From Bugula neritina (Eukaryota; Animalia; Bryozoa): DNA of 64,000 nucleotides. The stretch's first letter is position 1, and each line of letters starts with the position of its first letter. Location of the stretch: assembly GCA_964035545.1 (NCBI GenBank), contig OZ037771.1:9541408-9605407 (forward strand), written 5' to 3'. A model generated the notes under the pieces. It was given only the letters and a program-made list of their open reading frames with translations. It was not told the DNA's origin and made no database searches. A program made the position numbers and the translations under genes. This document shows, piece by piece, positions 2,311-63,600 of the stretch.

Positions 2311-2311
2311 G

Positions 2312-2329: not shown

Positions 2330-2377
2330 CTTTGCGTGTGATAAGACTGCTATCTGAACTAATCTAAGGAATTAAAA

Positions 2378-5302: not shown

Positions 5303-6270
5303 TGATAGAAGGTCTATGCGATCTTAGTCTCGAATTCGTTATTCTCGGTCAGACTACCTCACTGGTACTGGTCTCGCAAGTGTTCTACTGGAAGCGTTGT
5401 GACTTCCAGACTGTTATAAATTCGGGTTTCTTGAGAATTATATTGGTGGATCAATATTGATCCAACATTAATTCTGCTCTTTCAAGTGTCAGTCGACCTG
5501 TTATCACGGGTGACTTCTGGACGATCAGCTCCATTTGGCGCAGTGACGACTTACCAAGTCAACCTTTTTCTTCCCTCATAGAATTTGAAGATGACGGACT
5601 ACTGGAATCTCTTCACAGGTAATGGCGATGGGTATCACCAGCGACGGACAGGAAAATTGAGGCCGCTTGGAGCCTTAGCGGCAGTACTGTATGTCAACTG
5701 TGCCAAAAGCCATCAGCCTCAATTAGGGTGCTCAGAATGCATGTGGACACTCACTATATTCTTGCTTTCTGCCTTTGTGGAGAGTACAACAGCCAGCCCT
5801 GTGTTGTCTCTGATCACCAACTGTGGGTCAACTGTTACGTGGAAGCTATCTTTGCAGTTGATGAGGACAACTTCCCGGACTTTCTTGACGTTATCCGTCC
5901 TTTCGTCTACTCCTGACCGTTCTTTCACAAGGATTCCCACTCCATCACCACGTGAACCTGGATTATCGAGCCCGATCATTCCAAATCACCTTAGGCAATT
6001 TGGGCCAGCCTCTACCGCATCTCCGCGGCCGTATAGCGGGCTGAAGGAAAGCAAAACTGATAAGACGTCATTCGCATCGTCTTCTACTTCGAAGCATACA
6101 AATTCCACTTATGGTATAGAGCATAGAATCCGAAGACTACAAGTTGGTTCAGACAACTGGCACCTCAGCTCCTAGCTGTAACGACCGGACTGAACCACTT
6201 AAAAGACTCAATAGGCCGCAAAAAAAGGAAACTCCGTGGTCAGAAATTCAAGTCTGGCACCTACCGTTAA
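5303..6270 (+). pseudogene. Accessory ORF3 remnant of element A (C2H2 and C2HC zinc fingers, coiled-coil tail)
   Basis: The frame of the 5728 ORF reads CQLCQKPSASIRVLRMHVDTHYILAFCLCGEYNSQPCVVSDHQLWVNC..VDEDNFPDFLDVIRPFV from 5692. It is collinear with ORF3 at 61423. Confidence 0.8.
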
Positions 6271-6501
6271 GTATAACCAAGTATATAGTCTGTTGGACAT
6301 TCATTCTTACTCGGTGGACAACTTTGTGTCTATGTACTGCTAAATTTCTGGTTTCTTTTTGCCTTTCTTATACTGTGACCTATTGTTACTGATGTATGTG
6401 TGTATTTCTTCTTTGTATGTATTTTCCTCTTTGTATTTTACACACTACCTCGCCATTTTTTTAACTTTATCAAGAAGTGGGCTTCCTGCAGGTGGGGGTG
6501 G

Positions 6502-6967
6502 TGTAATGGCTAGCGGAAGTGGAAGCCTCTCTGTCCCCTGCTTAACATATAGTTATAGTTTATAGTCATAATCAGTTATAACATTTCTATCTCAGTCCTA
6601 CCGCTTCGCACGCAGCAGGCAACATGAGCTGATGAATAACATTGTGAATCTACTCGCCAAATAACATTAACAATAACACGTGGAGAGGTCAACCAATCAG
6701 GGTTGACCTAGTACTTATAAACAGCGCCTGCCGGCGCCCACAGCAGACAGAGGACTATGCTAGTAACTGGATAGTAACTAATGTAGCGTTATAGCTCTTG
6801 TATAATTTATCGACTGATGTAACCTATTTTACTTTGTATCTTTTGTAACTAATATAATCATATCGCATCTAATCAACACTCGGATCTGTTATAACCTCAC
6901 TAATGATGCAGTAATCAATCACATACAATAATATCTACGAGTAGTTATAATTCACAAAATTACAACA
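6502..6967 (+). repeat. 3' LTR of element A (466 bp)
   Basis: Direct repeat of 1843-2310, preceded by the PPT. Confidence 0.95.
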
Positions 6968-7939
6968 GTATTTACAATTAGTTAGTTTGAAAAAAGCTTG
7001 ATTAATTAATTTTAAGTTAAAACTTTTAAGGCATTTTTCGTAAATTTCTATAGTCTAAAATGTTGTGTGATGCATTGCAATTTCCATATTATGTTGAAAA
7101 CTAAGCAAATACAAATAATAATAAAATTGTTTTAGAAAATTTGCTAAATTAAAACTTGAACGTTTGTATCTGTAAAATAATTAATTTGTTGGAATAAGAA
7201 GCCAGTATATCAAAATACTATAGGTACTCGGTATTACATGTACTGCAATAGCACTGATATTGGCAGGAAATGTTTGTTAAAACAGAATTTCTGGTAAATT
7301 TTGAAAAATAACATGAGCCAAACTAATGTTGAGCAAACTCTGCACAATGTTAGAACTTTGAATTATTTGAGAGAAATAAATTCATGTTATAAATTTAATT
7401 GCAATACATTGCAACAAACCTTTTATCTTTTTCTGAAAAATCGCTTTCAATAAAATCCGGAGAAGTCTAATATAAACTTAATGTTCTAGTAACTAGTTTC
7501 TCTAATAAAATGTTATTGCTGCTACATGCCTGTGGTCCCCCTTTGCTTGTGTCTGACCCAGCATAACCACATCAAACCCTCAAATTAAATGCTGCTCCAT
7601 ATTCTAATTAAAAATTAAAGTAAAATAATTATTGCAAAATTTACAGGCTCTGTGCAAATTTTTTCATGAAGCATAAACATATCTACCAGTTGTTCTACAT
7701 CTCATGTGTTAACATATATATTGTAGGAGAAGCAAGGCTCTAAACCTTATCATATACATTTCATTGGGAGTTATGATAGCCATGTTTCTTTCAACTTTGG
7801 GTTTGTGCATCTGGTGCGTGTTGGATCCTAGTGCTGGGTGAGTTAAGTAGCGATATCACAGAATCCTCGGCTGTTTCTAGCTTTCATTTCATTAATTACT
7901 TTGCTCGAGAGTTTTAATCAATGACTATAAACTTACAGA

Positions 7940-12084
<4,145 letters not shown>

Positions 12085-12382: not shown

Positions 12383-15300
12383 TTAATAGCAGTATATATT
12401 ATCAGTGTTGAAGTTGTGCCAGCTGTAGGAGGCATTGTGGACATACCAGTTCCAATACCTGCTGCAATTAGTGTGTCTGCCACTCAACTGCTTTCTGAAA
12501 ACCTTTTTTGTGGGTTTATCATCTGATGACTCAGGAGATGCGACAGCAAATCGATTCAGTTGAAGAGATGAACTGTTTGAAGCTAAAGAGCCAAGAGAAA
12601 ACCTGATTGGTCTTCTAGTGGTAGTCGGACTGCTTGTCACTGGAGACTGTCTCCATCTACTTAATGCTAGGCTTGCTGAATTGTTAGTATTTGCTGCAAT
12701 TGTTAAAGATAAGTTAGGCGACATTCTGTTCGAACTAAATCTTCGAGTCTGCTTCGGCTTTTGTGATGACTCATGTTCATTCTTTACTTGTTCATCTTCT
12801 GGAATGCTGAGTGAAAACAATGGTTTCTTGGCAGCCCTTGCTACAAATGGACTGCTAGAATAAGTGTTCAGTGTTTCACTACTATGAGACTTTGAGAATG
12901 CAACTGGCAAACTTGGCACAGGTGACCGGGATTGATCCGAAAATTTTTGTTTTTCATTCTCCATTGATTTGAAAGCAATATAAGAATGTGTAGGGTTGTC
13001 CATCACGACAGCATTTCTTCTTTCTCTACTTCTACGCTGCATATTTTGTGATTGATCACTGACTTTTCTAACACGGCAGAGAGAATTTTCAGGTTCGTAG
13101 GCTAAAGCATTGTTGCTGGCGACCCCTTGGTTAAGGCCACTGGTTATTGCAGGTTTGTCTAAAGCACTTCTTCTGCGCTTACTTGTATCCTGCTTCAACT
13201 GAGTGGGTCTTGCAGCACTGCTCATCCGACGGAGAGAGTTTGATGGCTCATATCCTGTTGGTGAAAGGGTCAAATCAGCTACCGCACTTTGCTTGATTGT
13301 GTTATTATTGATGGAATAAAGCTTCTGATATGTGTTCACTTCACTGGCATGCCGGACTGCCTCTATGAAGTTGTGGTGTGAAGCTGTTTTCTGTAGCAAA
13401 CTGCTTGATGCTGTTAAAAAAACAACGCTAGTTTATTTAAGTAACCTTCAATTTATGGACAATACAAAACTGGTTGATGAAGTATTCTATTGCCAAATTG
13501 CTGGAGACAAACAGAATAAACATTTTATTTACTGTTGCTTTTAATTATTTTCATTAATGAAATAGGGCTTCTGTTTTTACTAACTTGAAATATGTAATAT
13601 ATTGAGACATTTGTAATCGAATTTTCTTTTAAAGCCTATTGCAGCAAGCAGCTTAAAAGCATGTTTAAATATTAAATATGGGTTTATATTAGTTTTCACA
13701 CAAATTTTTGTAGGTATTACTGTTAGATTACACAGATACCGTCTACCTTATCAGCATAAGAAAATGTGTAAATAGAAAGCTAAGCGAGAACTAATAAAGT
13801 AGTTTTTACTAAGAAGTTATGATTAAATATTCTTAATAGTCTGGCAGAAAAATGCCAATTTTTGACTTAGGTTCGCAATCCCGGATAAAGTTTTTTTCTC
13901 TCCGGATTATTCAAATATAGGGTCTAGGTAAATGTTTTCAGGTGGGTGTGGACTTCTTACCCTTGAGCATTTTGAGAAATTCAAGATGGCCGCCAGGCAC
14001 CAAACGATTTTTTCTAATTGAAATGTACCTACCCTTTGGGGCTAAATTTAAGGTTCCAATGCTTTGAAATCTTTAGAAATTAATATAATAAAGATTGCTT
14101 ATGCCTTTATCATATGTATTATTGAGTAATAGGCAAATGATACCCAAGGGTAACTAAGCTAAGCCTTAATCATTCATTTTTTCAAGTTTAACCTAGCCTT
14201 GCCGTCTTTATAATTTCCTTGCATCTTTGCATCGGTTTGTTCTAACTTCATAAAAATTTACTATATGGTGTGATTTTATATGCTGATTACAAATATGTCC
14301 ACCAAATAAAACTGAAAAGGGTTCTGCAAACTTAAAATGCAACGTCATTGCCATATGAGCTAAATAGCAATTTATTTCCAACTGGCATGCCTAACGAAAA
14401 GGTTTGTTTAACTGCCAACTTATTAGTTATTTTCAGTTTTAAAACTTTAGCTATGTTTTTTAAAGTTATAAAAAGGGGTCAACAACCTTAATAACACAGC
14501 ACCATGGCTTCTTAACATAATTTAATTGCTTTATTATTGACACATCATCTATCTAAATATTGACATTTTTGCTTTCAAAAACTATTTCTACAATCAGCAC
14601 ATTTGACTTTTCCTCTAAAAGCATTTGTAAACAGTTTTTTATGAATGAAAATGTATTTCATGCTGAGGGAAGTAATACATATTCTATTAGAACAGTAGTT
14701 CTCAACCTTTTTCATACCAATCCCTTTTCATTAACGTTTACTATTATTTCTCCTCTTTTAATGACCTATGTTAAGTGCACTGGAAGACTAATAGCTAAAA
14801 GTGATTTGGTAGAAGTAGTTAATTCTACTTTTGGTGGTTTCTCCAAAATGCTAAATAGAAAAAGTTTCTCCAGAATGCACAAGGTTTGAGAATATTGGTG
14901 GGAGAACTGTTAAAGCTAGTCTTGATGAAAGTGTAATCACTAGCATGAAGAAGCTTGAAAAGATGTTGATTAAGATTGCAGAGAACTCAAGAACAGCAAA
15001 ACTGTTGGCCATGTGCTTTATTGAACCAATTTTTACTATCAACACCAACATCATAGCTGTTAGAGAATGAGACTGGGCCTTACACCTAGCAATGGAAGAG
15101 GAAATGCACTATCTGCATAGCGTGGATGTCATGCCACAAGATATAAGGAATGAATTCGTGGCAGGTAACCACACAATGCATCATAAACGCGGCCAGCTCA
15201 ATGGCATCTGCTCGGACATGACCATTGAGGTGACCTTCGTAAGATTTGGTCACAGCAAGGGAGAATCATTGGCATCACCACTAAATCCGAAACTTTCAAG

Positions 15301-20007: not shown

Positions 20008-33561
<13,554 letters not shown>

Positions 33562-42886: not shown

Positions 42887-44449
42887 CTGTTGTAATTTCC
42901 AGAATTGTGGGTTGGTGTGCAATCAAGAGAGTCTTATTTACTATACTAAAAAAACTTCGCCAGCATAATTCGAATCAACACTACTATATTTTATACACAA
43001 GAATACATCACAAAAACTACAGTAACACAAATGCATTCAGCTAATTGATACGGTCTATACAGTTCACCAGTCTAAACTCAACTAACTAAACAGCGGGAAA
43101 CTACTATTACTAAAAATTGTCAGTTCTGCTAATTGGTTGTCTGTGGTTCCGGGTCATCTCTATGACCCCATGCTGCACTCATGGAGGAAATAAAATTTCC
43201 CCGTTATTACGCTGCTGGTAGCTCCACGAGCCACCACAACATTGCATTCACAGGGAAGCTTAAACTTTATAGCTTTGTATTTACGTGCATTGGTGAGTTT
43301 TAATTTTTTTTAGTTGTATGTGCATAAAAATGTGTCTAAAAACTTTACCAATAAACAGAATTAAAAAAATGTACACATAAAATAAAAAAATAAAATAGAA
43401 TAACAAAAGTGGCAAAATTTTCTCTTGGTAAGATTTATAAACTCGCGGTACCAGTCGCGGCATAATGATGCCCATATGATTCCCTAATATTTTCTAAAGT
43501 CGGCACTCTCAAATAATCCACACTGCTCCAGAGATGGTAGATATCATTTGTCTGAGCTTCAAAGGAGCTCCCTAAAGTCAAAGAAATAAAACCCTTAACT
43601 TTTTATATTTTTAATTTTTGAGTTGGTTATCAAATTTGAGTTTTGATTTCATTCACTACCTATAGTTAAATGCTAAAAATAATATTAATAGTCATGCAGT
43701 TAGAGTTATACTTATAGCAAATGCACTACTACTACTACTACTACTAGTAGTAGTAGTACTACTACTAGTACTACTGAGTACTACTACTACTGTACTAGTA
43801 ATGTTAAACTAAAACTTAATGTACAGTCTCATGACACTGTACTACTACTTAAACTTACCACTACCACTTCTATAAACTAAACTACACTTTAAATACCACT
43901 ATAACAGCCACTACCACTAATACTTATACTAGTACTAGTAGTACCACTACTACTACTACTACTAGTAATAGTAATACTAATACTAATAGTAATAGTAGTA
44001 AAGTCTTACTCTTAGTAATACTAACACTAATACTATTACGCCGTGATACTAAGTCTAATAGTAATACTAATAGTCACTAAATATAATACTAATACTGTAA
44101 TAGTAATGCTGATAGTATTAGTATCACTATAACTATTACTATTAGTATTAATACTTGTAAAAATATAATAGTCATCTCTTAGTTTACTCGGGCTACCCCA
44201 GGCTTTGTGGTTGGGAAAGTTTGAGTTTATGGATTGCCTTCTGCTCGACTCGCTGCTGTACTTCATTCATGCTTGCTTTTAAATGGCTTTTAATTCAATG
44301 ATCAATTGATTTGTGTACTATATTTAGTTGCAGCTTTTGCGAACAGTCACTCTCAGATCTCTGTTGTATTTAGTCGTGAATTTTGCATAACATATAGTGT
44401 GTCAGCAGGAGCCCAAAGGTCAGTAGTGTAGTGATAAGTTCACCCGGTA

Positions 44450-44520
44450 GCTCCCGTGGTGTAATGGTAGCTTCCTTGCTTGCAAGCCAGAGGACTCGGG
44501 TTCGATTCCCAGTGGGGGCA
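44450..44520 (+). ncRNA. tRNA-like Pol III unit (tRNA-Gln-like body, aberrant anticodon arm) inside the LTR, antisense to the element
   Basis: Acceptor stem GCTCCCG/TGGGGGC, A box TGGTGTAATGG, B box GGTTCGATTCC, and TTTTT 4 nt downstream. Confidence 0.7.
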
Positions 44521-45703
44521 ATTATTTTTCAAGTTCGCTGAAATATCTTTATTTGGGAAGCGCAACTAATCACTAAGAATACATTTCCAAGACTGACAAT
44601 ATATAAACAAACCGCAAAGATAAAGGGGATTTAAGACACAAATAAAAACCACACAACTATTATAATATTTACAAAACAGTTACATAACTGCATGATGCAA
44701 TGTCATGCACATTACATTTCCCCCTGATCTTATCAGATCAAACAAATATATAATAAAAAAAAAACGTTTAGTCATCTACATAAAAGTCTGCTAACCACCT
44801 AGGTGGCCGTCTATTTCTTACTGGTCGGTCAATCACTTCGTCTACACTTTCACTTTCCTCAACATTTTCACCATCCACAACTCTATTTGCATCTGCATTC
44901 TCATCAGCATTATCTGGCCTCAGGTTAATTTCAATGTCTCCATGTACCTGAGATTGCTGTTTTGTACTTGACGAAATGTCACCACTTTCCCTGTTCCCTG
45001 TATTAGCCAATCGAACATCACTTATATGTTGTGTCATACCATTACCGCAGTGTTCGACACAACCCTGGTAATCGTGCCCTGTGGCCATGCAGTTGTGCAT
45101 TTAAAATTCACAGGTTTTACATAAACTTTGTCTCCTACATTGTGGGGATTTTTATAATGTCTGTGGGTTTGCCTATTATTGATGGTGATACTTTAGGCAG
45201 CTTTACATTATAGCTGTATAAACTTTGTGAGGGTACTACATTGTTACTATTTGAAATGTTGTTGTACGAAAATACCATATTTTCTATTGAGAATTTAGTT
45301 CAAGCTGCCATTTTTTTATAGTCCTGTGATTGCGCTCTATAACACTATTCTCAGATGCTCTATAAGCACGGCTAAATATGTACTGTACATTCCACTTCCT
45401 AAGTAAATGTTCCAATCTGTCACTTCTGAAGCATGGTCCGTTGTCTGTCAGGACCACAGTGCTGAAACACCTTTAGTAGGTGATTTACCACAGAATCAGC
45501 AGTCTCATTCTGCAACTTTATCCACAAATCGAATGTATTTGGACCACAGTCGATAATAGTCAAGTATGGTACACTGTTATAATGACTCACATCTATTGTC
45601 AGCCTATACTAATTCTCATTGACCTCCAAAACTCCTTTTTCCCACTGCACTTGAGAGAGGTCAATGCTCCTACACACAGCACATTCTTTAAGCTTACCCT
45701 GAA

Positions 45704-45773
45704 GCTCCCGTGGCGTAATGGTAGCACACTTGCTTGCAAGCCAGAGGACTTTGTTCGATTCTCAGTGAGGGCA
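45704..45773 (+). ncRNA. Second, more degenerate tRNA-like copy in the other LTR
   Basis: gctcccgtggcgtaatggtagcacacttgcttgcaagccagaggactttgttcgattctcagtgagggca followed by attattttt. Confidence 0.6.
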
Positions 45774-46308
45774 ATTATTTTTAAATTCACTGAAATATCT
45801 TTAACTAATCAACTAATCACTACAAACACAATATATATACAAACAGCAAAGATAAAGGAGATTTAGGACACAAAGGAAAACCACACAGCTATAAGAATAT
45901 TTACAAAACAGTTACATAACTGCATGATGCAATGTCATGCACATTACAAACTGTAGAGTTTTATTTATTTAATTTTATATTTTGTTCATAAAATCCTGTA
46001 TTTCATTTTTTGTATTTCACCATAATTATTTTACACCACCTAAATTTATTGTATTGTTTGTATTTTGTTTCTGTATTGGTATAATTTGTGTTAATTTAGG
46101 TTTCACGGTATATAAGATAGGTAAATAAAGAACCAGTGAACTACTCCATGCAGCACAGTGACACTTACTAATTAGTATCCAACCTCAGTCAGAGTTAAAT
46201 ACTCAATAGTGAAATCTCACACAACTCTACAGTGAAACCTAACAGTGAAACCTAACAGTATAAGTATTAGTATTACTATTAGTATTAAACTATGTCTATT
46301 AGTAATAT

Positions 46309-49300
46309 TGTAAAGAATTGGTATAGTTATTGTCAATATCGAAAGGATAACTCCTCGTGGCTTATTCTCTATACGCTTGGCATGATGTCTACAAGTGCAA
46401 AGGATCAATTATCGTAATAGCTGACAATTGGAATGCGTATAGTCTCTCTTATACTCGGCTGGACAATTATTTCTAGCTACTAATGTACGCAGTTAAACAA
46501 GGCAAGACTAGTCAATTAGGAACAATAGCTAGCGTTAGTAAATAGCCAATCAGCTTAGTAGAAGGTTTGAATAACTTGTGAGCAGTTAGCGTGCTCGATG
46601 AGCCGGCAGAGCAGCTTGGGACTGGTTATTGAGTAGTAGTGCATAGATTGCTCTGTATTATGTAATGGTGTAAATTAGTGTAGTAGTTTTATTTGCTGTA
46701 TTTTTCATAAATAATAAACTTTGATAATCGTGATAAACCTGGTGAAGTAGCTTTAAATAAGTAGACCCACACATTATAGTTGAAGAACAGTTGGGGAAAG
46801 CGGGTGTATACAGCTGGGAGGAAGGACAACTTCGGTCCGAATCCCTTAATGAGGCTGTTAACAACCTTCACGCAAACCCCACACTGCTCAAGAACGTCAA
46901 GGAGCTGTGTCAGCTCCAAGCTACGCTACCAGGGGTAGTAGCTGACCTAGTCCGGGCCAAGAAGGAGCGACGGCGGCCTAGTGAGGCCGAACAGCGGGTG
47001 AAGAGTGCAGAGTTTAAATACTTCTGCGACCGCTAGGACTCCCTCCGGTTTAACAGCGATGGGCTGCTGACGATAACGTTGGCAGCCGGCACCAATCGCC
47101 GTGAACGAGAGAGGGTAGTCTGTCCGTCTGCTGTGAGGCGGGAGTTGATCTGGGACACCCATAAACAAGCTCATGCAAGAGCTGGACGGCTGACTAGGTG
47201 TGTTCAACTACAGTGGTTTTGGCCCGGTATGACCCGGGATGTCCGACTCGGGGTGCGGAAGTGTGAGATATGCCAAGCTAGTAAGCATGGCCGCTCCACT
47301 GTGACCGCAGGGAGGCACCGCCTCCATGCCGGTCGTCCGTGGCAGGTAGTCGCTGTAGATCTGGTAGGCCCCATGCCCACAACAGTGAGAGGTAATAACT
47401 GGATACTGGTATTAACTGACCATTTCACGCGGTGGGCTGATGCCCTTGGTTATTCCAGATTCGTCGGCCCCCTCGGTGGCCAGAGCCTTGGATCAGCAGG
47501 TATTCTGTTATTTCGGCTTGCCGGAGCAGATACACTCTGATCAAGGCGCCCAGTTTCAGTCGCAACTTATGAGCAATCTCTGTAAAACGTGGGGGGTAAA
47601 CCAGAGTCGGATGACCCCGTATCACCCGCAAGGGAACGGGGTTGTGGAGCGGAACAACCGCATGCTAAGGGACTCACTGAGAAGCCTGCTTATCGGTAGG
47701 AGCCAGAAAGAGTGGGACTTGGTACTGCCGCAAATTATGCGAGCTTACCGTAGTACCCCTCACTCCAGTACACTGGAGACCCTTAATTTTCTCATGCTGG
47801 GGAGAGAAACAAGGGTTCCTGAGCACGTAACCTATCATGTTCTGACTCCAGAGAGCAACGTCCTTGATTACGTGGACGAGCTCGTGAAGCACATGAGGAC
47901 GGCTCACGAGGTGCTACGTGAGCAGCAATGGCAGGTCAGGAGTGGTGACTCTGATGACCCCCTTTTGTATAAGGTGGGAGACTGGGTCTGGATGACCAGT
48001 CATCGCCGGCCGTGCAGACAGGCGGCTAAGTTGCAGCCGAAGTTCGTGGGTCCTTATTGGGTGATTGAGGTGATGCCTAATTACACCTACAAAGTGGAAC
48101 GGTCTGGACAAGTGTCGGTCCAGAACGAAGCACGGCTGAAACCTTACTGGGCGAGCCCTGATGCAGCAGGTCAAGCACCTCCTCTCTTAGAGCCTGCTAG
48201 ACGCCCTCCTATGAGGGGGCGAGGCATGGCATACAGAGAGATAGAAGAGATACTGCCAGGTCAGGAGGGAGCAGCCGACGCGCCGCCCGACCCGCCCAGG
48301 CCACCTCCACCCCAGGAAGAGGAGATCGACACACCGGAAGACCAGTCCGAGCCGGCCCCACCACCAGTGAAACCGGCCGACACTCCTGTCGCCCCGGATG
48401 AGATGGAAATTCCTCAATTTCATGAGGAAGAGGCCACTGAGAGGACACCACTCGTACTGGTGGACACCCCCGTGATGGTAGAGTCACCAGCAGCAGCGAA
48501 TCACCCAGTACTGTTGGAGCGTAGTCAACGTACTAGGGCGCCACCATCTTATTTACAAGACTTCTGGTGTGACTTGGTTGACATGCATACTATACTATAA
48601 CCTGTCAACCAGCACAATAGAAGTCTGGGGGGGGGCAGCTATTGAGAGTTGCGGTTCCTCGATATCGAGAGACTCAACTGTGAGTTGCGGGCCCCAGTTG
48701 GCGTGTATAATTACGTCAACTGGGAGGACAACAAGGGCGAAGCCAGCCACCGAGGGAGGGTTATTGCATCACCCCTCCTATCGTGTGGAACGCCCTTACC
48801 AGTTGTAACTGTCAAGGTGAACACACACTTGTGACAGTTGGCAAACTACGAACCCTAAGTGGACAGTAGGGCTAACATAGCGACTGTCCTATGGGAAGTC
48901 TACTAGTGCAATTCTTTTATTCAAGTAGAATTTAGACCAGTAGCCAATTGCCGTCTCGCTCTGTCATGGGATAGAGCTGGAGCTCCTGATGTCAGGTAAT
49001 TTTGCTGACGACTTAGAGTGAGGCGGTCGCCCGAATGATTCTGGTAATCAGTGGGTTGTTAGACTGCGGGACTCAGTCGTCGGTGTCGTACTGACTGGGT
49101 GGAGTCCCCTACAACAGAAGCTGAGAGCTCTGTTGAGGGTGAGACTGTTCAAGGTTGAGGAACTAGAAGATAGATCCTACCATCACCGTCACGCAGCCAC
49201 ACCCCCTCCTCTCTCGGTGACCGTTATGGACTAATATGCGACATGGATTAATTCGTAAAAACTCTCATATAGAGCAGGTGGCTGACGTGAGCAGCAGGCA

Positions 49301-50159
49301 GTTTGGCCCTGTTATTTCATCTGCCTTGCCGCAGGATTGCGATATTTCATCGATGGTGCTCTCGCCGGTTATATTGCTGTTTTGTACTAGTATTTTATGC
49401 TGTAATATTTTATGCTGTTTACTTTGTGTGTGACTTTTCTTTTGTGTATCCCTTTATTATTCTGTTTTACGCTTTCATCATTATGCGCCGGCCAACGACA
49501 CTTGCTGTCTATCGTGCTTTATCTGGGCGGTCAAGATCCTAGGCGCCAGAGACCAGGATGTCAAACATGAACTATGCTTATGCTGTCACATTGGCCCAAG
49601 ACTTGGGCCTGCTACCTAGTTTTACAGAAGTTTCAGTAGGGAGTGTACCTTTCGATAGGTGGGGAGGATGTAAAGAATTGGTATAGTTGTTGTTATTATC
49701 GAAAGGATAACTCCTCATGGCTTATTCTCTATACGCTTGGCATGATGTCTACAAGTGCAAAGGATCAATTATCGTAATAGCTGACAATTGGAATGCGTAT
49801 AGTCTCTCTTGTACTCAGCTGGACAATTATTGCTAGCTACTAATTTACGCAGTTAAACAAGGCAAGACTAGTCAATTAGGAACAGTAGCTAGCGTTAGTA
49901 AATAGCCAATCAGCTTAGTAGAAGGTTTGAATAACTTGTGGGCAGTTAGCGTGCTCGATGAGCCGGCAGAGCAACTTGGGACTGGTTATTGAGTAGTAGT
50001 GCATAGATTGCTCTGTATTATGTAATGGTGTAAATTAGTGTAGTAGTTCTATTTGCTGTATCTTTCATAAATAATAAACTTTGATAATCGTGATAAACCT
50101 GGTGAAGTAGCTTTAAATAAGTAGACTCATACATTATAGTGAACTGCAATATCACTACA
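46309..50159 (+). mobile_element. Ty3/Gypsy element D, deleted from the end of the 5' LTR through RNase H
   Basis: LTRs 46309-46780 (last 19 bp missing) and 49669-50159, with about 15 mismatches over 472 bp. PPT aggtggggagga, perfect TSD ATAT. The integrase region is nearly intact. Confidence 0.95.
46781..48600 (+). pseudogene. pol: Integrase of element D (HHCC, DDE core, GPY/F, Pro-rich tail); one stop and one frameshift
   Basis: THKQAH...CEIC, VAVDLVGP, IHSDQGAQF, NGVVERNN, FVGPY, LERSQRTRAPPSYLQDF. Confidence 0.93.
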
Positions 50160-52152: not shown

Positions 52153-53324
52153 TGCGACCTGGTACCCCAAACAAGGGATGTATATAAAATTTTGAAAACT
52201 TAGTTCTTGCTATGGGGTGACAGAGCAGACCTTTCCAAACATTTTGCACTTTTTGTTTGAAGTCTCTAGCACAAATATAACTCGAGATATCAGTATTTAA
52301 AAACTTTAGCTTTATTAGAATTCACATTTTACTGTTAGTAGTGTGAATGATTGTTTTGAGTGTAATTACCTGTGTTGTTGTGATTTTCAAGCTTGAACGC
52401 TAAAGTTGAAGATTAAGTTCAGCATTTATCACCAAAGGGCAAAACAACTCATTAACTAATTGCATTGAAAGCTAACTTTGCATGGAGCACTATGAAAAAC
52501 TAAAACTAGCCTTCGGTTTTAAATATGATACTTCTGACAATACTAAGAAAGAGGTGTAATCTAAATTCATTTGATAAAAATTAAATTTGCAAGATCTCAC
52601 GCTATAAAAAATGACTAAAGTTGTCTTCTTTCTTTATTTGATAACTTTGCAATTTTTTCATCATTTAAAAAAAATTGATTGCCTTGGTTACCAACTTTAA
52701 ATACATTTTTAGAGCTGAAGGAGTTATCAAATGCTTGCGAAAATATGATGTTTGAAATCCTTGGAATTTTTTGTGTCAGGAAAGTTTAAAATCTAAAAAT
52801 TGGAAATTACTTTCAAATTTCAGTATTGGGTCATTTTACTTAATTTAGTACACACCGGAAGTTTCCAGTTTTTAGCTATTTTTCACAATTTAGCTGCTAA
52901 TGAACAAGAGTTTTTGCCCAAAACTAGTTAAATGTCAATCAACGCACACAAATAATTGAGGTTCTTTTTAATTTTGATTGATTTTCCATGTTTTTTCCTA
53001 ATTATTTAGCTACTTTTGATTGCAGACCGTTATGGTTTTTTCGTAACGGTCTGCAATCAAAAGTAGCTGAATAATTAGGAAAAAACATGGAAAATCAATC
53101 AAAATTAAAAAGAACCTCAATTATTTGTGTGCGTTGATTGACATTTAACTAGTTTTGGGCAAAAACCCTTGTTCATTAGCAGCTAAATTGTGAAAAATAG
53201 CTAAAAACTGGAAACTTCCGGTGTGTACTAAATTAAGTAAAATGACCCTATTTCCAAATTAAACCTTCATTTACTACGCTTTATAAACGCCGCCACATCC
53301 CCGGTTTTGTCGCAACTGGTCACA
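52153..53324. mobile_element. Non-autonomous DNA transposon-like element with TG(C/T)GACC termini, between dinucleotide repeats
   Basis: The left end tgcgacctggtaccccaaacaagggatgt resembles the reverse complement of the right end, tgtgaccagttgcgacaaaaccggggatgt. No coding remnant recognised. Confidence 0.55.
52828..53248. repeat. Near-perfect long inverted repeat (205-bp arms, 11-nt spacer)
   Basis: Arms 52828-53032 and 53044-53248 with two mismatches found; spacer tggttttttcg. Confidence 0.95.
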
Positions 53325-54624: not shown

Positions 54625-57600
54625 ATGCAAGCGAATATCACGTAATTCTGTCGTTTATTAGTATTTCTGTCTAAGTGTATAGATGACTCCTACTTTTTCT
54701 GTTTATACCAGTGGTCATTCCACTTTATCTATAAGGCTTTTCCTGTGAGCTTCATAATATATTTATTGTATAGGTGGCTCAAAAAACACCACCAAGTACT
54801 CAAAGAAGCTGAAAGCAGTTATGATAAACTAAGACATTGCTCTTGCCATACAGTTGAGGTGCCACCAGCTCCATCATCATTCAACAAAAGTCACTCAGTT
54901 AGCCTCCAAAATCTTCAAAAATGGTAAATATTGTAAACATGTTTTCTAACCATCTCTATTTTACATGTCTGGCTCAAGAATCACCGCTAATTTCATGCAG
55001 CATGTGTTTATAAGTTTAAAAAGTTCATTATAAAACTTGGCTATTTGGCTAGGTATACTCACATAACAGAAGCTCCTTTAGTATTATCTAAAAGGATTAA
55101 TAATAAAATGTCAAAGAGAATGTAAAGGTATTCTTTATTTGCAAAACAAAGGTAATCAGTTTCTTGGGTAATATAGTCATTGTATACACAGTGTAGTACT
55201 ATATAGTATATACTACTGTATACCCATTGTAGTACTATATAGTACTGTATACACAATATTATGGTACTACTATATTGTGTACTGTAGTATAGGGATAATT
55301 TAAACTATGCATTCAAAGCATCAATATATGTTTATAGCCGACAACCTTCTGCCTCTAAAAGCATGACTAAACCACACAAAAGAGAAGCTAGGCGAAAACG
55401 CAAGACAGGAATTAACTCTGGAATTTCTGCACATACCGTTGCTGAAAAAGTTGAAGTTACTTTGAATGATGAGTACTTGGAGTTCATGTTGCAGTCAGCT
55501 AGGCATCGCAAAGAACGAGGTAAATCATATCCATAAACAAGGTAAAATGCAGCTATTGATCATTTGTAGTGGAGCACGCAATACACGCCTCCACGTGTCC
55601 CCTAGCCAATGAGAGATGCGTCAGGTGACAACCCCCAGCGATGCGTAACTAGAAAGTTGTTGTAATAGAGAGAGCGTACGAGTAACTAGTGAGGATGTAA
55701 TTCATTTAATCTGTGTGTTTTCTTGTATAATTTTATTAGTATGTAACTGTAAATAAATATCTTTTAATCCTATCACAAGCCCTATATTGCTGCGGATAAC
55801 CAAATCATAATTACAAGCTAGGAACCACGCATTAACATTGTGTAAATCACAACAGTGGTGGCAGAGTGGGATCCTAGCTACTGTTTGGAGACGATGGAAA
55901 AACATTGGAACATCATGGCCGAAAGTACAGCTTCAACTGAAGAAGGTGAGCGAGACATTATCATAAACCCTCTCGAGGCCGAAGAGGAGGCATATAAATA
56001 TACATTAGGAGCCCCCGCCTTCACAGGCCTTGAAGATGTTAAACAATTTATTCGGGAATTCAATGAAGTTGCAGCCATTACAAGATGGCCGCCGAGAGTA
56101 GCCCTGATAAAGCTACAGATGGCACTGACGGAACAAGCCAGGCCGTACGGACTGAGACCCAGCGTAGACGGGATCATCGCTGCGCTACGGGCCCGTTTTG
56201 GCATACCTGCCGCAGACGCCAAGGCCCGTTTACAGGGACTGCTCCGCAAAACATGTACACCACTCCCGGACCACGCTACCCTGGTGAAGAGACTGGCACG
56301 GATCGCGTATAGCGACCTGCCAGAAACACACAGACGACGCTATACGTTCGAGGCTTTTGTACAATCCCTCAACAACTTGGGCTTCCACCACCAGTTACAA
56401 GCGAGAGGAGTGACCACGATAGAGGCTGCACTACAGGAAAGCGAGGCTTATCTGGGGGCCGAGCAACTCTGTCGAGCGATAGAGACTACCCCGCGAGCCA
56501 CTAGAGGACCAGACCATCCGGTCCGAGTAGCTGCTGCTACTACTAGCCCTTCTTTGGAGACAGAGGTCGACCGCTTAATGACTATGCTGGAACAATTGGT
56601 GGCGACCATAACATACAGCAATCCCACGGGATACAAGAGACCAGGAGTAGAGACTCCCAGACCAGCTGCCCGTTGCTGGAGATACGGCACAAGGGGACAC
56701 CTCCGCTCGAGCTGTCCACGACCTAAGAAGCGGCAGAAACCCCACGATCCACGGAAGCCCCCCAGAACTCCGCGGGCCAAAGAAGAAGGAAAAGCAAGGT
56801 GGATACCGCCAGGCGTCCGTACGGACCCAGCGGTACGCCCCCCACCAGTGGCAAACACCTCGTCGGACCAGCCAGCCAGACCGACAACAAGAACCCTTCT
56901 CACTGCTTCTCACTAACCGCTTCAGCCCGCTATCAGAAATAGAGCCGGCCAGCGAGGCCCCTTCGGGCATCGGAGGGGATCAACCCACCCCTCCGCAAGG
57001 AAACTCTCACCGGCCCCGCAAATCGCGAAACAAACGGGCACAACCCCGTTCGGCCGAGACCGAGCACGCTGGTGTAGTACGGGTACAGCCTCACGGAGAT
57101 AGCTACTTCTTGCCAGAAAAGGTGGCTGGCAAAGCTGTCACCTTTCTGCTAGACTCCGGGTGTACCACTAATCTGCTCAGCCGCTGGGTCTTCGACACCC
57201 TCCCCTCTAGGGAGAGGGGAGCCTTAGCTCCCTATACCGGGGAACCGGGCACCTTAGCTGACGGGTCGCAGATTCCATTCTATGGTATTATAGAGCTGAC
57301 TGGGCGCGTCTGCGACCAGGCTATCCAGGAAACCTTCGTCATCAGCCAACTCGAAGAGGATGCTATACTAGGGATGCCGTTCTTGAAGAGACACGGTTGC
57401 CGCATTGACTTTAGCAAGTCAGCCATGCTGATGGCCGGCAAGGAACTCACCTGTGTCGACAAGTTCAGCCGTCCCCTAGTCGGAGGCGTGCAGGTAGTAC
57501 GGAACTGTACAATACTCGGCCGCTCCCGGGCTACCATTCACTGTAGAGTGAACAATAGCCAACTCTCGGGGTTAGGGGTTGTCGAAGGTGCGCACACGAG

Positions 57601-60600
57601 AATCCAACTCGCCAGCAGTCTTAACCGGCTGACTGACCGAGGAGAGATCTTGGTGCAGTGTGTCAACCCCTTTTCCGAAGCGGTACAATTACCATCAGGA
57701 TCCATGCTGGGCCGTTTCCACTCTATCCAGGAGAAGGATGTAGGGCTGTCGCTAGGAGCTGCGTCAGAAGGTCCCCAACAGAGCCCGTCAGTTAGGCGGG
57801 GGACCGTCCCACAACACGTCCAAGAGCTATACCAGGCAGCGTGTGACGGCTGCGCGAGCAACGAAGAGCGCCAGGCCATGGCCCAGTTGCTACGCGAATA
57901 TAGCGACGTGTTCAGCAGTGGGGACCATGACGTAGGCCTGACGACAGCCGTCCGTCATAAGATACCGCTGGCTGCCGGGACTGCCCCTATCCGACAGCCC
58001 ACACGGAGATTGGGACCGGAAAAGGAGAAGGAGGTCAGCCAACAAATCCGGGATCTTTTAGACCGCGGCCTCATAGAGCCAGCACATAGTGCGTGGAGCT
58101 CGCCGGTCGTCCTGGTCCGAAAAAAAGACGGCAGTTGGCGGTTCTGTGTGGATTATCGCAAACTGAATAGCGTGACCATACAGGACGCCTACCCCTTACC
58201 CAGGATCGACGAATCCCTGGACGCCCTAGCCGGCAGCAAGTACTTCAGTACGCTAGACTTGCTGAGCGGTGTCTGGCAGGTCCCCCTCAGTCCCGACGCC
58301 TAGGAGAAGGCGGCGTTCATCACGCGGGACGGCTTGTGGAAGTGGAAAGTCCTACCCTTTGGACTGACTTCCGCCCCCGCCACGTTCCAGAGGCTCATGG
58401 AACAGGTCCTCAGTGGACTCCACTGGAAGACACTGCTGGTATACCTTGATGACGTCATCGTGATCTCCTCAGACTTCTAGACACACATCAGTCGTCTGCG
58501 GGAGGTCTTTGAACGACTCAGAGGTGCCGGTCTGAAGCTCAAACCCTCCAAGTGCGCTCTCTTGCAGCCAGAGGTGAAGTACCTGGGACACATCGTGTGG
58601 CGACGGATCCCGAAAAGGTATGAGCTATAGAAGATTGGGTCACCCCCCAGGATTTGACCGGACTTCGGGCATTCCTCGGGCTGGTGGGGTATTACCGGCA
58701 ATACATACCAGACTTTGCGGGGGTAGCACAGCCGTTAAATCGGCTCACCGCAAAGGGGGTGACCTGGCAGTGCACTTCCGTCGAACAGAGGGCGTTCGAC
58801 CGCCTCAAGGGCCGCCTGCTAGAGGCCTCCATCTTAGCCTACCCAGACCCTGCCCTGCAGTACATCCTAGATACTGACGCCAGTGACCAAAACGTCGGCG
58901 CTGTGCTGTCCCAGGTGCAGGAGGGCCGCGAAGTAGTCGTGGCCTACTACAGCAAGTCTCTCTCACCCACCAAACGAAATTACTGCACTACCCGCAAGGA
59001 ACTGCTGGCAGTAATCAAGTCGGTGAAGCACTTTAGACCTTATCTGTACGGCAGGAAGTTCCGGCTGCGGACTGACCACGCCTCCTTGATTTGGTTGTGC
59101 AAGAGAGCAGAACCGTCCAGCCCGGTCGCCAGGTGGCTCGAGGTCCTGGCCGAGTTCTCCTACGGTAAGAAACGGTAAGAAACACGGCAATGCCGACCGA
59201 CTGAGCCGGCGGCCGGACGAGGGGTGTAAACAGTGCCTTAACATCGAGAAGAGGGGCGGGGTCCCCAAAAATCCGAGTTGAGAGCACTGGACCACCCTGG
59301 AATGGAGTATGACTGGGACCAGGGTCAACTCCGACAGAAGGCCGATACGCCTCCGGAAGCTATCCAGAGTCTCCGCGCCAATTCTGTCTTGACTGGTAAC
59401 GTCAGGGAGCTACAAAAACTCCAGGAAAACCTTTCAGGGGTAGTAGCCGACGTGTACCGGGCCAAGAAGGAGGGGCGACGACCCAGCGAAGAACAACTGC
59501 GGCAAGGATGCGCTGAGTTACGGCTGTACTGCCAACGTTGGGACTCCCTGCGGATCGAGCCGGATGGTCTGCTGACCATGACAGTGGCCACCTACAACAG
59601 ACACCACAGGAGAGAGAGGGTGGTCTGCCCAGCCGCCATTCGCTGGGAGTTAGTATGGGACACCCACAAACAGGCTCACGCAGGGGTCCAAAGGGTGCTC
59701 ACCAAATTACAGCTCCGGTAGTACTAGCCCGGCATGTGGCGCGATGTACGACTCAGAGTCAAGCAGTGTGAAATCTGCCAGGCCAGCAAGCATGGCCGTC
59801 TCCCTGGCGAAGTGGGGCGGCGTAGGCTATATGCTGGAAGGCCATGGCAAGTGGTAGCTGTTGACCTGGTTGGACCCATGCCTCTCACCCCCAGAGGAAA
59901 CAGTTGGATCTTAGTATTAACCGACCACTTTACCAGGTGGGCCGACGCTTTGGCTATTCCAGATGCGTCCGTCCTGACAGTGGCCAGGGTGTTGAACCAA
60001 AATGTATTCTGCTACCTCGGACTACCCGAGCAGATACATTCAGACCAGGGGGCTCAATTCCAGTCTCAACTGTTGAGCGATCTCTGCCGCCTCTGGGGAA
60101 TAAACCAAAGCAGAACCACTCCGTACCATCCTCAAGGCAACGGGGTGGTAGAACGCAACAACCGTATGTTGGGCGATGCATTCGGCAGTCTGCTCCTCGG
60201 CCGGGGTCAGGAGGAATGGGATACGGTACTACTGCAAATTATGCGGGCCTACCGTAGTACACCACATACCAGTACGGGGGAGACCCCTAACCTCCTAATG
60301 CTTGGCCGAGAGACGCGAGTGCCCGACCACCTCACATACCACATCCCCGAACAAGACTACACCATCCATGAGTATGCCAGTAAATTGATAGAGGACATGA
60401 AAGCTGCACACGAAATACTGCGAGCACAGCAGTGGCAGGTACGGCAAGAGGACTCTCAGGAACCACCACTCTATCAAATTGGAGACTGGGTATGGATGGT
60501 CAACTACCGTAGGCGTCGAGGACAAGTGGCTAAGCTCCAGCCTAAGTTCGTGGGACCCTACGTAGTAGTTGAGGCAATGCCCAATCATACGTACGAGTTG

Positions 60601-63600
60601 AAGCGCTCCGGACAGGTCTCTGTCCAGAATGAAGCCCGCTTGAAACCGTATTGGGCTAGCCCAGGAGCAGCAGGAGAAGCCCCCCCCCCCGTTGTTGGAG
60701 CCCAGGAGGCAGACAGCAACGCGCGGGCGGCAATGGCATGGGCCAGAATACGAAGTGATTGTGTCGCGGGAGGAGGACTTGGTAAAGCAGGAAAGGCCAC
60801 TCCCATCAACAGAGGTGCGCCCACCGCCCCCAATACCGAGTCTACCACCATCACTTCCGGATCCGCATCCGCGTCCGGACGTGCAAAACCCCCCCGCGGG
60901 AGGGGCTCTATCCGGAGACAATGTCGGGGAAAAAAATACCATCACCAACGACGGGCCAGAAACACCACCGGTGGAGCAAAATAGTCCACCAGTGAGTACA
61001 CCGCCCCGACCAACAACTACACCACCCTCCCCAGCTAGTACGTCACCTCCCTTGGAACGGGGACAACGTACTAGACAACCCCCAGCATACTTGAAAGACT
61101 TCGTATGTGACCGCGTTACAAGCGGCAGTTATGAAAGTCTAGCTGGGCACCGAACGGAAAGACTGGCAGCAAAACGTGGGAGTTGTGAACACCACGGGAA
61201 TACTAACTGTTGCGAAGGCGGAGTAGTGGACAAAACTACTACGCCCGAGGCAAACAGTTCCAGCCGTGCGCAACAAACACGCTGTCCGGTCTTTTCCTAC
61301 GCTGACATCACCAAGGGCAGACATATCCAAATCCAATCCACTAACATCCAAGCTTGAACACTGAGTATGATTTCAAACACCTGGTTCCCAGGTAAGCTTG
61401 CTCAGACCTAACATTCCCACTCATGGAAACAGGTCTAACATCAGTTAGTTCTGATTTAATCGCTCTGATTGAATCACAACTACTGGGGACTGAGTCTTAC
61501 GTGAAAGACGACGAGAACATAACAATGGCCGACGATCTACTAGATCTGGAGCTTGACACTATGTCTCTCAGTCAGTCTACACGCCACGACCCAGACCTTC
61601 GAGTGCCGTCTAAAAAGATGCATGACTCCCAGACTAGGAACAGTCGGTTGTCATCAGAATTATGCTGTAAAAATCACATTCGATCTAACAATAATTCTGC
61701 TCTTTTAGATACCACTCGTTCTCCCCTCTCTCAGGACATGCCGCCATTAGAGATGGCTTGGGATGAGGAATCTACCCCCGTCACGCTGCCGGAAGTACTC
61801 CTGACTCAATCATGCTGGATTACCAAGGATACAGAGGCACTCATTCAAGAGAATAAAGGCGATGACCAATGCACCACCTGCCGTCTGTGCCAACTCCATT
61901 TCACCACCCCGCGCAGGCTCAGAGTCCACGTCCCCCAACATTACGTCACCCCCTTCTGTTCCTGTGGTGAATATAGTTACCACAGGGACTACATCCTCCG
62001 TCATCAGCGGACCATGGGATGTCATGTTGGACATCTCTACGAAGTCGACTAACCCTCCTTCTCCCACTTTCTCGATCTCATCAGGCCATTTATCTCAGAC
62101 CCGACTCGCTATGAACGGCTGCGCCAAGAGTTCCCCGCGCCCCGTGCCATCACACAAGGACCCTGCCCCAAGCCCCCCGGGGTTTAAGAAACCACACACG
62201 CCCCGTCCCTCACCCCCCGCTCACACAGTGCCCCGTCCCAACTCCATACCCAGAGTCGTGCTGCAACGAATAGAAGTGCCCCAACGATGGCGACCCTCCC
62301 CTCCCGTTTCCCCACGACCCTCCCGTAAACGATGTTGGCTATCTTCATCCCCCAATCGCCACTCTGCCCCCGCCCGGAACCTAAAGGAAACGGAAGATCG
62401 AATACCTGAATTGGAGAGAGAAGTGCAAAGGTTGGCGCCTAGGATATCTGCCGCCGCCTCCGGGCTCTCCGCGACTCTGCGGCCCAACTGAAGAGGAATG
62501 CTTAAGACAGAGTGTCTAACCCTCTCTTTTCTCTACTTGTCCTACTCCCCCGTCCCTTACTATGCCGCAGGTGGTTTCTCCCTTACAGCCTCTACCTCGT
62601 GCCCCGGTGCCATAACAAATCTCCCGTTATGACAATCTGGTAGCTAGTCCATAAGTGTATATTTTTTTTAGTCGTCTGGGCCGTCAGCCTATAAGTGCCT
62701 CTCAACATTAGTAACACGGCGTCGTGTTCATACTGTTTTATGTTTTTTTTGTATTTGTGTTTTTTTATGTACATACCATACGCATCTCTCTCTATTTTTA
62801 TATTTTCTCTACTATTATATTTTTATTATTTTATCTGTTGTATCAGGAAGGTAGGCTTCCTGCTGGGGGGGGCGGTGTAGTGGAACACGCAATACGCGCC
62901 TCCACGTGTCCCCTAGCCAATGAGAGATGCGTCAGGTGACAACCCCCAGCGATGCGTAACTAGAAAGTTGTTGTAATAGAGAGAGCGTACGAGTAACTAG
63001 TGAGGATGTAATTCATTTAATCTGTGTGTTTTCTTGTATAATTTTATTAGTATGTAACTGTAAATAAATATCTTTTAATCCTATCACAAGCCCTATATTG
63101 CTGCGGATAACTAAATCATAATTACAAGCTAGGAACCACGCATTAACACTGTGTAAATCACAACACATTTTCACCTGTTTTGTATTCTATAATGTATCAA
63201 AACTTTTTAATTAAGATCTATTACATCATTTTGTGTAGATGCGAAAAAAAGTAAAGAAGATAAAGAACGAATGGAGGTTGACTGCAAAGGTAATCCTTTA
63301 TCTTAATAGCCTTCCCATAGTTTAGATTTGCCTCCTCGCAATAAAGAAACACTTTCTAGTTGAAAAGTACATCTTCATCATTTTAATCGTGAAACCGGAG
63401 CATATTCCTTTAAACTCTGTTGAGAGTGAAAGTGGGATTGTGAAAATTTATAAAGTTATAAAATTCTGTAAAAGCAGGTTTAGCAATTTATCATACTTTT
63501 ATCAATGTAATTTATTAAAAAAACTCATTTCAGAGTTATCTTATAGTTATTTCGCTCAAATGTTGTATTCTTAGAGTGGAAACAACTTCAACTTATTATC

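What the first reader, a model, noticed from the sequence alone, without database searches (positions are those of the whole stretch)
44427..45948. Integrase-bearing LTR element with an antisense tRNA-like Pol III gene built into both LTRs
Seen: both LTRs contain, at the same place near the U5 end, a ~70-nt tRNA-like sequence with a pairing acceptor stem, A box, B box (degenerate in the 45704 copy) and a T5 run right after it, on the strand opposite the element. Presence in both LTRs means it was in the RNA genome at reverse transcription and is not a later SINE insertion. The body resembles tRNA-Gln (GGTCCCATGGTGTAATGGTTAGCAC...) but the anticodon arm is non-canonical. Established: plant Cassandra TRIMs carry 5S sequences in their LTRs. 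As I recall, small-RNA-containing LTRs have otherwise been described in non-coding elements (Helenus/Ajax); here integrase coding remnants are present. Inference: the unit could provide a TFIIIC insulator against silencing, an antisense regulatory RNA, or a tRNA-fragment decoy.
Basis: partly seen in the sequence, partly recalled or inferred. Interest (0 to 1): 0.75.

Follow-up and report, generated by a model that had tools for sequence, protein, structure and literature searches.

The report
Inverted Helenus LTR capping dead Gypsy
The tRNA-like unit in both end repeats of this broken jumping gene is missing from its sister copies and is likely the whole end repeat of a tiny parasitic element, fused in backwards by a copying error, which would make it a dead one-off relic that points to the helper element the parasite depends on.

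Summary
In detail: a minus-strand, internally deleted Ty3/Gypsy-order element (44427-45948) carries a plus-strand tRNA-like unit in both LTRs. The idea of a built-in functional module is not supported. None of 198 contigs laid from four runs reaches from the family LTR into the unit. No tRNA hit was found in 45 related loci, and the unit is more diverged between the LTRs than the rest. Instead 44427-44531 (105 nt, TG...CA) behaves as the LTR of an abundant Helenus-type TRIM: varied flanks at both ends, and in other copies followed by this Gypsy family's own primer site. The best mechanism (inferred) is one template switch in a shared particle, which would explain the inversion, the lost U5 tip, the missing PBS and the deletion. 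Side result: the clade's primer site (38 of 78 loci) is complementary to the 5' 12 nt of tRNA-Phe, a mode my searches did not find in print. The scan noted a similar inverted Helenus-type LTR in a Copia element of another genome, but not this sequence.

The parts
44423..44426 (.). left copy of probable target-site duplication (GTAG; AGTAG with one mismatch if 5 bp)
   Evidence: sequence; empty-site joints 44422>45953 and 44423>45954 in X2, X6, X7 (table 5; sides 22-89 nt, letters between not known)
44427..44531 (+). complete 105-nt Helenus-type TRIM LTR (TG...CA), inverted relative to the Gypsy element; its start supplies the ...CA integration end of the 3' LTR
   Evidence: loose ends with varied flanks before 44427 (37 contigs X2, 29 X6) and behind 44531 (38 X1, 70 X2, 51 X6); behind 44533, 29 contigs of X7 continue with the clade PBS motif (table 7)
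44450..44520 (+). tRNA-like core with A box (44457-44467) and B box (44499-44510)
   Evidence: Rfam RF00005 29.7 bits; boxes printed
44525..44529 (+). T5 run, possible Pol III terminator, at the U5 end of the TRIM LTR
   Evidence: similar T runs follow the tRNA-like part in Helenus LTRs of the Kojima supplement
44532..44716 (-). native Gypsy-family part of the 3' LTR (U3-R-part of U5; AATAAA at 44548-44553); the native U5 tip of about 20 nt is missing
   Evidence: family contigs cover 44532-44716, with loose ends at 44521-44533 leading to another tip and then the PBS motif; loose ends behind 44716/44717 mark the U3 terminus
44717..44740 (-). polypurine tract (44717-44725) preceded by a short palindrome typical of the clade
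   Evidence: sequence; the same palindrome plus PPT in 32 of 78 related loci
44771..45692 (-). degenerate integrase remnant (end of zinc finger, core, C-terminus) broken by stops and several frameshifts
45689..45783 (+). second copy of the Helenus-type LTR, lacking its first 8 nt, joined directly to integrase; tRNA-like core 45704-45773 with degenerate B box
   Evidence: PBS, gag, protease, RT and RNase H are absent (2.7-2.9 kb in 5 complete relatives)
45784..45948 (-). native Gypsy-family part of the 5' LTR, starting TG at 45948
45949..45956 (.). 4 unexplained extra nt (45949-45952) then right copy of the target-site duplication (45953-45956)
   Evidence: joints

Best explanation
The element is a broken Gypsy-type insertion whose LTR tip is replaced, in both LTRs, by an inverted 105-nt tRNA-like repeat that is likely the complete LTR of an abundant Helenus-type TRIM, likely fused in by one template switch during reverse transcription. 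Shown: the unit is absent from family LTR contigs, occurs in many other contexts with sharp TG and CA ends, and in other copies is followed by the same primer-binding motif as this Gypsy family. Inferred mechanism: TRIM RNA and Gypsy RNA were packaged in one particle. RT finishing the TRIM's plus-strand strong-stop DNA (one full LTR starting at TG) jumped at the LTR/primer border onto the Gypsy RNA's U5, where a short in-register likeness exists, and went on as Gypsy minus strand. The TRIM LTR so took the place of the tRNA primer and the U5 tip. Plus-strand synthesis from the PPT copied the hybrid LTR. With no PBS copy to pair with, the second jump landed inside integrase, dropping 8 nt of LTR plus PBS, gag, protease, RT and RNase H. 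Integrase then inserted a DNA with one Gypsy end and one TRIM end. The product would be dead on arrival; the A/B boxes are baggage from the TRIM's Pol III promoter, not a function of the Gypsy family.
For: Family lacks the unit: depth 0 at 44512-44519 in 4 of 4 runs against 6734/5404/20284/190 at 44544-44551, 198 contigs laid; 8 listed loose-end rows (13 contigs) at 44521-44533 all lead elsewhere, 3 of them to the PBS motif. Unit is an independent LTR-like repeat: summed depth 100900-293561 at 44464-44529 against about 185-8800 over integrase; varied flanks exactly before 44427 and behind 44531. Shared primer site: 29 contigs of X7 continue from the unit's CA end into the motif that follows the 5' LTR in 38 of 78 related loci (0.1 of 78 in shuffles); one X14 contig shows the Gypsy LTR, that motif and the same next letters as the TRIM side. 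In-register likeness at the junction: native-LTR contigs were aligned 11 nt into the unit, to 44521, in X1, X6 and X14. Same junction in both LTRs. No duplication flanks the unit itself. Length 105 nt against 104 nt for the shortest animal Helenus LTR; about 38 of 46 letters alike, counted by eye, with the 3' half of Helenus-3_SaGl LTR. No tRNA hit in 45 related loci, 35 of them with 105 nt or more upstream of the PBS in view.
Against: No full TRIM (LTR-PBS-PPT-LTR with TSD) was retrieved; its second LTR rests on two weak joints with sides under 30 nt. The loose-end tables were cut (645 and 48 rows not shown). The window's own copy does not seem to be in the laid runs (at several internal sites all depth shows another letter, table 3), and no genome is held, so further hybrid copies in the source genome are not excluded. 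Summed contig depth is not copy number, and true tRNA genes or other tRNA-derived repeats may add to it. The TSD is imperfect, with 4 extra nt, while the clade's TSD is 5 bp (exact in 1 of 3 loci checked, one mismatch in the other 2). The template switch itself is inferred; likeness at the second junction could not be checked.
Confidence: 0.6

Rival explanations
1. Multi-step nesting: a Helenus LTR inserted backwards into the U5 of a Gypsy 5' LTR, a small deletion removed the native tip, one normal round of reverse transcription copied the hybrid into both LTRs, and a later deletion removed PBS to RNase H.
For: Same end structure. Inverted nesting of TRIM LTRs is ordinary, and the native tip and the inverted TRIM start both end in ...ACA, which could guide a deletion. 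The 3' LTR keeps 8 nt that the 5' LTR lacks, which fits a later deletion.
Against: Needs three or four independent events, and leaves no TSD remnant at the unit. It does not explain the in-register likeness at the junction. It predicts a PBS-bearing hybrid subfamily, of which no contig was seen (0 of 198).
Confidence: 0.2
2. One reading: a heritable subfamily of coding LTR retrotransposons that keeps an antisense Pol III unit in its LTRs as insulator, antisense RNA or decoy.
For: Unit in both LTRs at one junction; intact A/B boxes and T5 in the 3' LTR copy. The source genome is not available, so a private subfamily is possible.
Against: Absent from family contigs in 4 of 4 runs and from 45 related loci; more diverged than the rest of the LTR and B box decayed in one copy; this copy has no PBS.
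Confidence: 0.1
3. The unit is the head of a free tRNA-derived SINE or a processed tRNA pseudogene captured in the LTR.
For: Very high abundance, highest over the 3' half of the tRNA-like core; many contigs diverge 5' of 44475.
Against: Boundaries sit 23 nt upstream of the tRNA start at TG and end sharply at CA; other copies continue into a primer-binding motif rather than a body or tail.
Confidence: 0.07
4. The two repeats are a local duplication or gene conversion after insertion, not LTRs made together.
For: Imperfect TSD; only 90% identity between repeats.
Against: The repeats end exactly at the family's U3 terminus (loose ends behind 44716), a PPT precedes the left one, and empty-site joints skip the whole block.
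Confidence: 0.03

Closest known systems
Helenus TRIMs / TRIMp3 (Kojima 2024, PMC10886601; read main text parts 1-4 of 6, a passage search, supplement parts 1, 7, 10, 11 of 11 and a search of the whole supplement)
   Same: Short TG...CA LTR built around a non-functional tRNA-like sequence with A/B boxes followed by T runs near the LTR end; abundant solo LTRs; primer site shared with an autonomous Gypsy; no self-priming.
   Different: In the Helenus LTRs I read (parts 1 and 7) the unit is in sense orientation, as it is here relative to its own PBS; here one LTR is also fused backwards into the helper's LTR. The PBS motif is absent from the supplement (0 hits for either variant searched); animal PBSs shown there match tRNA 3' ends and fungal ones mostly anticodon loops, not a 5' end.
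Ty3/Gypsy-order LTR retrotransposons of invertebrates (unnamed clade; relatives in Watersipora, Trichuris, Elysia, Amphibalanus, Pycnogonum)
   Same: Protease-RT-RNase H-integrase order in relative P0004, zinc knuckle gag in P0006; TG...CA LTRs, PPT, about 4 kb, 5-bp TSD.
   Different: PBS complementary to a tRNA 5' end directly after the LTR; palindrome before the PPT; DUF7047 between RT and RNase H. I did not place the clade on a tree against Mag, CsRn1 or MolGy references.
Cassandra and Ajax (5S-derived TRIMs; as described in PMC10886601)
   Same: Small-RNA-derived Pol III promoter inside LTRs.
   Different: 5S rather than tRNA origin; sense orientation; non-coding.
Template-switch chimeras of LTR retrotransposons (PMC1950507, seen only as a search listing and abstract start)
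   Same: Complex insertions attributed to template switching during reverse transcription.
   Different: Here the proposed switch is between a TRIM plus strand and helper RNA and gives an inversion; I did not read that paper's cases.

Membership tests
Helenus (for 44427-44531) | LTR with TG...CA termini containing a tRNA-like sequence with A and B boxes | tested here: met
   termini supported by varied flanks before 44427 and behind 44531
Helenus (for 44427-44531) | PBS directly downstream of the 5' LTR | tested here: met
   29 contigs of X7, agreement 0.76, continue into the clade's PBS motif; seen in 1 of 4 runs among the rows shown
Helenus (for 44427-44531) | two LTRs around a short non-coding interior with PPT | tested here: inconclusive
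   two weak joints bring a second unit close behind the first (44533>45722, 44521>45694; sides 23 and 28 nt); PPT not seen; pattern scans found no contig
Helenus (for 44427-44531) | 4-bp TSD in animals | not testable with these tools
   no assembled TRIM copies with flanks were available
Helenus (for the whole 44427-45948 block) | under about 1.3 kb, non-coding, unit in sense orientation to PBS/PPT | tested here: not met
   1522 nt with integrase remnant; unit antisense to PPT and integrase; no PBS
Ty3/Gypsy-order LTR retrotransposon | integrase at the 3' end of pol followed by PPT and LTR; order PR-RT-RH-IN | tested here: met
   window: integrase-PPT-LTR; full order in relative P0004
Ty3/Gypsy-order LTR retrotransposon | RT phylogeny within a named clade | not tested
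   window copy has no RT; no reference set on hand
functional tRNA gene | canonical cloverleaf, detected by tRNA finders | tested here: not met
   ARAGORN 0 genes; non-standard pairs in D and anticodon stems; fold no better than shuffles
tRNA-derived SINE | starts at tRNA 5' end, carries body and tail | tested here: not met
   boundaries at 44427 and 44531, PBS downstream in other copies

The most novel reading that the evidence does not exclude
This is a fossil of co-packaging: one reverse-transcription accident in which a Pol III TRIM's strong-stop DNA primed its helper's minus strand, naming the helper of an animal Helenus directly. Helper and parasite belong to a widespread invertebrate Gypsy clade that primes with a 12-nt fragment from the 5' end of tRNA-Phe, a priming mode distinct from 3'-end, half-tRNA and self-priming.
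Probability: 0.4. Interest if true: 0.72.

Novelty: new variant of a known kind. Interest (0 to 1): 0.5.

Why it matters
For animal Helenus the helper was inferred only from PBS likeness (PMC10886601). A single insertion with one TRIM end and one Gypsy end, plus a shared PBS, would be direct genomic evidence that the two share a particle and an integrase. It also shows how tRNA-like pieces can appear in LTRs of coding elements without any function, a trap for annotation. The side finding may matter more: in 38 of 78 related loci the PBS is the complement of a tRNA 5' end, with no copy of its complement in the upstream LTR (0 of 38). If real, it is a further way to prime reverse transcription and would lie outside the reach of 3' tRNA-fragment silencing, which is directly testable.

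Tried and rejected
No whole genome is held for this window. DNA-pattern scans for the unit found 0 matches in metagenome, viral and prokaryote genome contigs. A protein scan of viral contigs gave 2 weak loci (L001, L002), left out of all counts. The look-up of sequencing runs: no RNA holder listed; all shares under 0.2; runs X7 and X14 are RNA only by guess, so nothing is said on expression. ARAGORN at lowered thresholds gave noise (44 calls in the window) and was not used; blastn of the two LTRs and an A/B-box pattern found nothing in 80 loci. Rfam was run on 45 of the 78 related loci; 33 were not scanned. One count was empty because of a pattern slip and is not used. Self-priming by the unit, and Tf1-type self-priming by the LTR (0 of 38), were tested and rejected. 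A check of PBS variants against tRNA 5' ends in viral contigs gave 6 matches: 1 Phe, 4 Val, 1 Thr; only the Phe one equals an observed PBS variant. Three of five main variants remain unverified, and a paper search for them gave 3 unrelated hits. Paper searches for 5'-end tRNA priming or tRNA-like LTRs in autonomous elements found nothing relevant; the library lacks most subscription journals and Repbase Reports. Passage searches of PMC8556966 and PMC7472051 did not name the clade or this priming. An autointegration reading of the 4 extra nt was considered and left open: they are the reverse complement of the 4 nt after the unit, but the clade's TSD is 5 bp. No structure or complex prediction was run.

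Full report
1. Observation. The window holds two direct repeats, 44435-44716 and 45689-45948, with 234 of 260 paired columns identical. Between them lies a broken integrase on the minus strand (Pfam rve E 2.7e-4 on one piece; tblastn with natural relatives over 44771-45692) and a polypurine tract at 44717-44725. The element therefore runs on the minus strand, and 44427-44716 is its complete 3' LTR. Rfam tRNA matches 44450-44520 on the plus strand at 29.7 bits, the only gathering-level hit in 64 kb; the second copy scores 21 bits. ARAGORN calls no tRNA and the fold is no better than shuffles, so this is a tRNA-derived promoter-like sequence, not a tRNA gene. The 5' LTR lacks the last 8 nt and joins directly to the integrase zinc finger; in 5 complete relatives the missing stretch from PBS to that point is 2.7-2.9 kb. 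Contigs that join left flank to right flank, skipping 1530 nt, occur in 3 of 4 runs, so the block is one insertion in a repeated flank. The TSD is GTAG with 4 extra nt on the right.

2. Do family copies carry the unit? No genome is held, so I laid contigs of public runs that hold parts of the element. On 44512-44730, 198 contigs were laid from 4 runs of 3 studies. Depth is 0 at 44512-44519 in all four and 6734, 5404, 20284 and 190 at 44544-44551. The 8 listed loose-end rows at 44521-44533 (13 contigs; 48 rows of the table not shown) lead into a native U5 tip of about 20 nt or another U5, in 3 rows visibly followed by a primer-binding motif, and never into the unit. Among more distant relatives (78 loci, roughly 40-60% identity in integrase), Rfam found no tRNA hit in the 45 scanned, 35 of which show at least 105 nt upstream of their PBS. 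Between the window's two LTRs the unit is 83 of 95 identical and the rest 151 of 165, so there is no sign of selection on it. Limits: the window's own copy does not appear to be in these runs, contigs drop rare variants, and hybrid copies private to the source genome cannot be excluded.

3. What the unit is. On the wider stretch, summed depth over 44464-44529 is 100900-293561 against about 185-8800 over integrase (not a copy number, and other tRNA-derived repeats may add). Loose ends with low agreement, meaning varied flanks, cluster exactly before 44427 (37 and 29 contigs) and behind 44531 (38, 70 and 51 contigs). So 44427-44531, which starts TG and ends CA, is a dispersed 105-nt unit with sharp ends. 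In 29 contigs of run X7 its CA end continues into the motif that follows the 5' LTR in 38 of 78 related Gypsy loci (0.1 of 78 in shuffles). One X14 contig shows the Gypsy LTR followed by that motif and the same next letters as on the unit's side. This is the anatomy of a Helenus LTR. In Kojima 2024 (PMC10886601; main text parts 1-4 of 6, supplement parts 1, 7, 10, 11 of 11) Helenus LTRs are TG...CA repeats with A/B boxes and T runs near the 3' end, in sense orientation in the parts I read, and as short as 104 nt in animals. By eye the 3' half matches oyster Helenus-3_SaGl in about 38 of 46 letters. A second LTR, PPT and TSD of the TRIM were not shown: two weak joints only, and pattern scans were blank.

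4. How it likely arose (inferred). Five facts need explaining: exactly one full TRIM LTR, inverted; no duplication around it; the native U5 tip gone; the same junction in both LTRs; and PBS to RNase H gone, with the 5' LTR 8 nt short. One event accounts for all five. By established retroelement replication (my knowledge), a plus-strand strong-stop DNA starts at the LTR's TG and runs to the primer. If RT, finishing the TRIM's strong-stop DNA, jumped at the LTR/primer border onto co-packaged Gypsy RNA, it would continue as Gypsy minus strand. The jump site has in-register likeness: read laying aligned native-LTR contigs 11 nt into the unit in 3 of 4 runs. The TRIM LTR, being DNA, would stay at the 5' end of the minus strand in place of primer and tip. 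Plus-strand synthesis would copy the hybrid LTR. Lacking a PBS copy, the second jump would land ectopically, here inside integrase. Integrase would then see a Gypsy end on one side and the inverted TRIM start on the other, both ending in CA. The product has no PBS and should be a single dead copy, which fits. I put 0.8 on the unit being a Helenus-type LTR foreign to the family, and 0.6 on the whole account. The main rival is stepwise nesting and deletion (0.2). Against the account: the imperfect TSD, the unverified second junction, and no assembly.

5. Side result on priming. The clade's PBS follows the LTR without a spacer and reads AGCTAT-nnn-GGC in five main variants. The commonest is complementary to the first 12 nt of a tRNA-Phe(GAA) primer printed in PMC10505166 (one passage). 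A second equals the 5' end of a tRNA-Phe called by ARAGORN in L086; the other 5 of 6 matches in that scan were Val or Thr tRNAs whose 5' ends equal no observed PBS. Three variants are unverified. No complement of the PBS lies in the 450 nt upstream (0 of 38), so Tf1-type self-priming is unlikely, and the unit itself pairs with the PBS over only 5 nt. A 12-nt 5' fragment of tRNA-Phe would be the likely primer; this is inferred from complementarity alone. The motif is absent from the Helenus supplement, and searches found no paper describing it, in a library that lacks most subscription journals and Repbase Reports.

6. Comparison and novelty. The 105-nt unit works like, and probably is, a Helenus LTR (two defining features met, one inconclusive, one untestable). 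The whole block is not a Helenus: it is coding-derived, and the unit is antisense to its PPT. It is a Ty3/Gypsy-order derivative by domain order in relatives, and I did not name the clade (searches gave no handle). Kojima notes that not a few Repbase LTRs hold tRNA-like parts and followed only those under 1 kb, so tRNA-like pieces in larger elements are not new as such. What is new here is a probable Helenus family with a primer type not listed in that paper, tied to its helper by a chimeric insertion.

7. Verdict. Observation confirmed; interpretation partly supported. It is not a coding LTR family with a built-in antisense Pol III gene but most likely a one-off TRIM/helper chimera. Novelty: new variant of a known kind. 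Interest 0.5, carried by the helper link and the 5'-tRNA-Phe primer site rather than by any function of the unit.

Noticed in passing
L003-L078 (38 of 78 loci), directly after the 5' LTR: The PBS reads AGCTAT-nnn-GGC in five main variants (15, 9, 6, 4, 3 loci, plus 1 single). The commonest is the exact complement of the first 12 nt of a tRNA-Phe(GAA) primer in PMC10505166 (one passage seen); another equals the 5' end of an ARAGORN tRNA-Phe in L086. No canonical TGG-type PBS was found at LTR ends.
   Followed up: partly
window 44725-44740 and 32 of 78 loci: A conserved palindrome (GATC-n-GATCA type) stands right before the PPT across the clade; role unknown, possibly a hairpin or a second tRNA contact.
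   Followed up: partly
window 45949-45952: Four extra nt between the U3 end and the TSD are the reverse complement of the four nt that follow the unit at 44532-44535; chance or an autointegration-like trace.
   Followed up: partly
window 44532-44567: This R/U5 stretch around AATAAA has higher depth than most of the LTR and is shared by contigs that match nothing else, one continuing into yet another U5: several related LTR families share it.
   Followed up: no
P0006: A natural relative encodes gag, protease and integrase in one frame with no RT or RNase H, so RT-less derivatives exist in this clade.
   Followed up: no
window 1843-6969, 46309-50140, 55565-63165: Three other LTR elements of a different Gypsy group (LTR identity 92, 97, 99%); the first and third have a canonical TGG-type PBS; no tRNA-like unit at Rfam gathering level.
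   Followed up: partly
window 52825-53251: A 427-nt near-perfect palindrome (96%), possibly a fold-back element.
   Followed up: no
window 26541-26870, 27952-29003, 29308-31200: Three tandem arrays with periods of about 41/82 and 34/68 nt.
   Followed up: no
window 12383-13432 (-): A 349-aa stop-free frame with no Pfam match.
   Followed up: no
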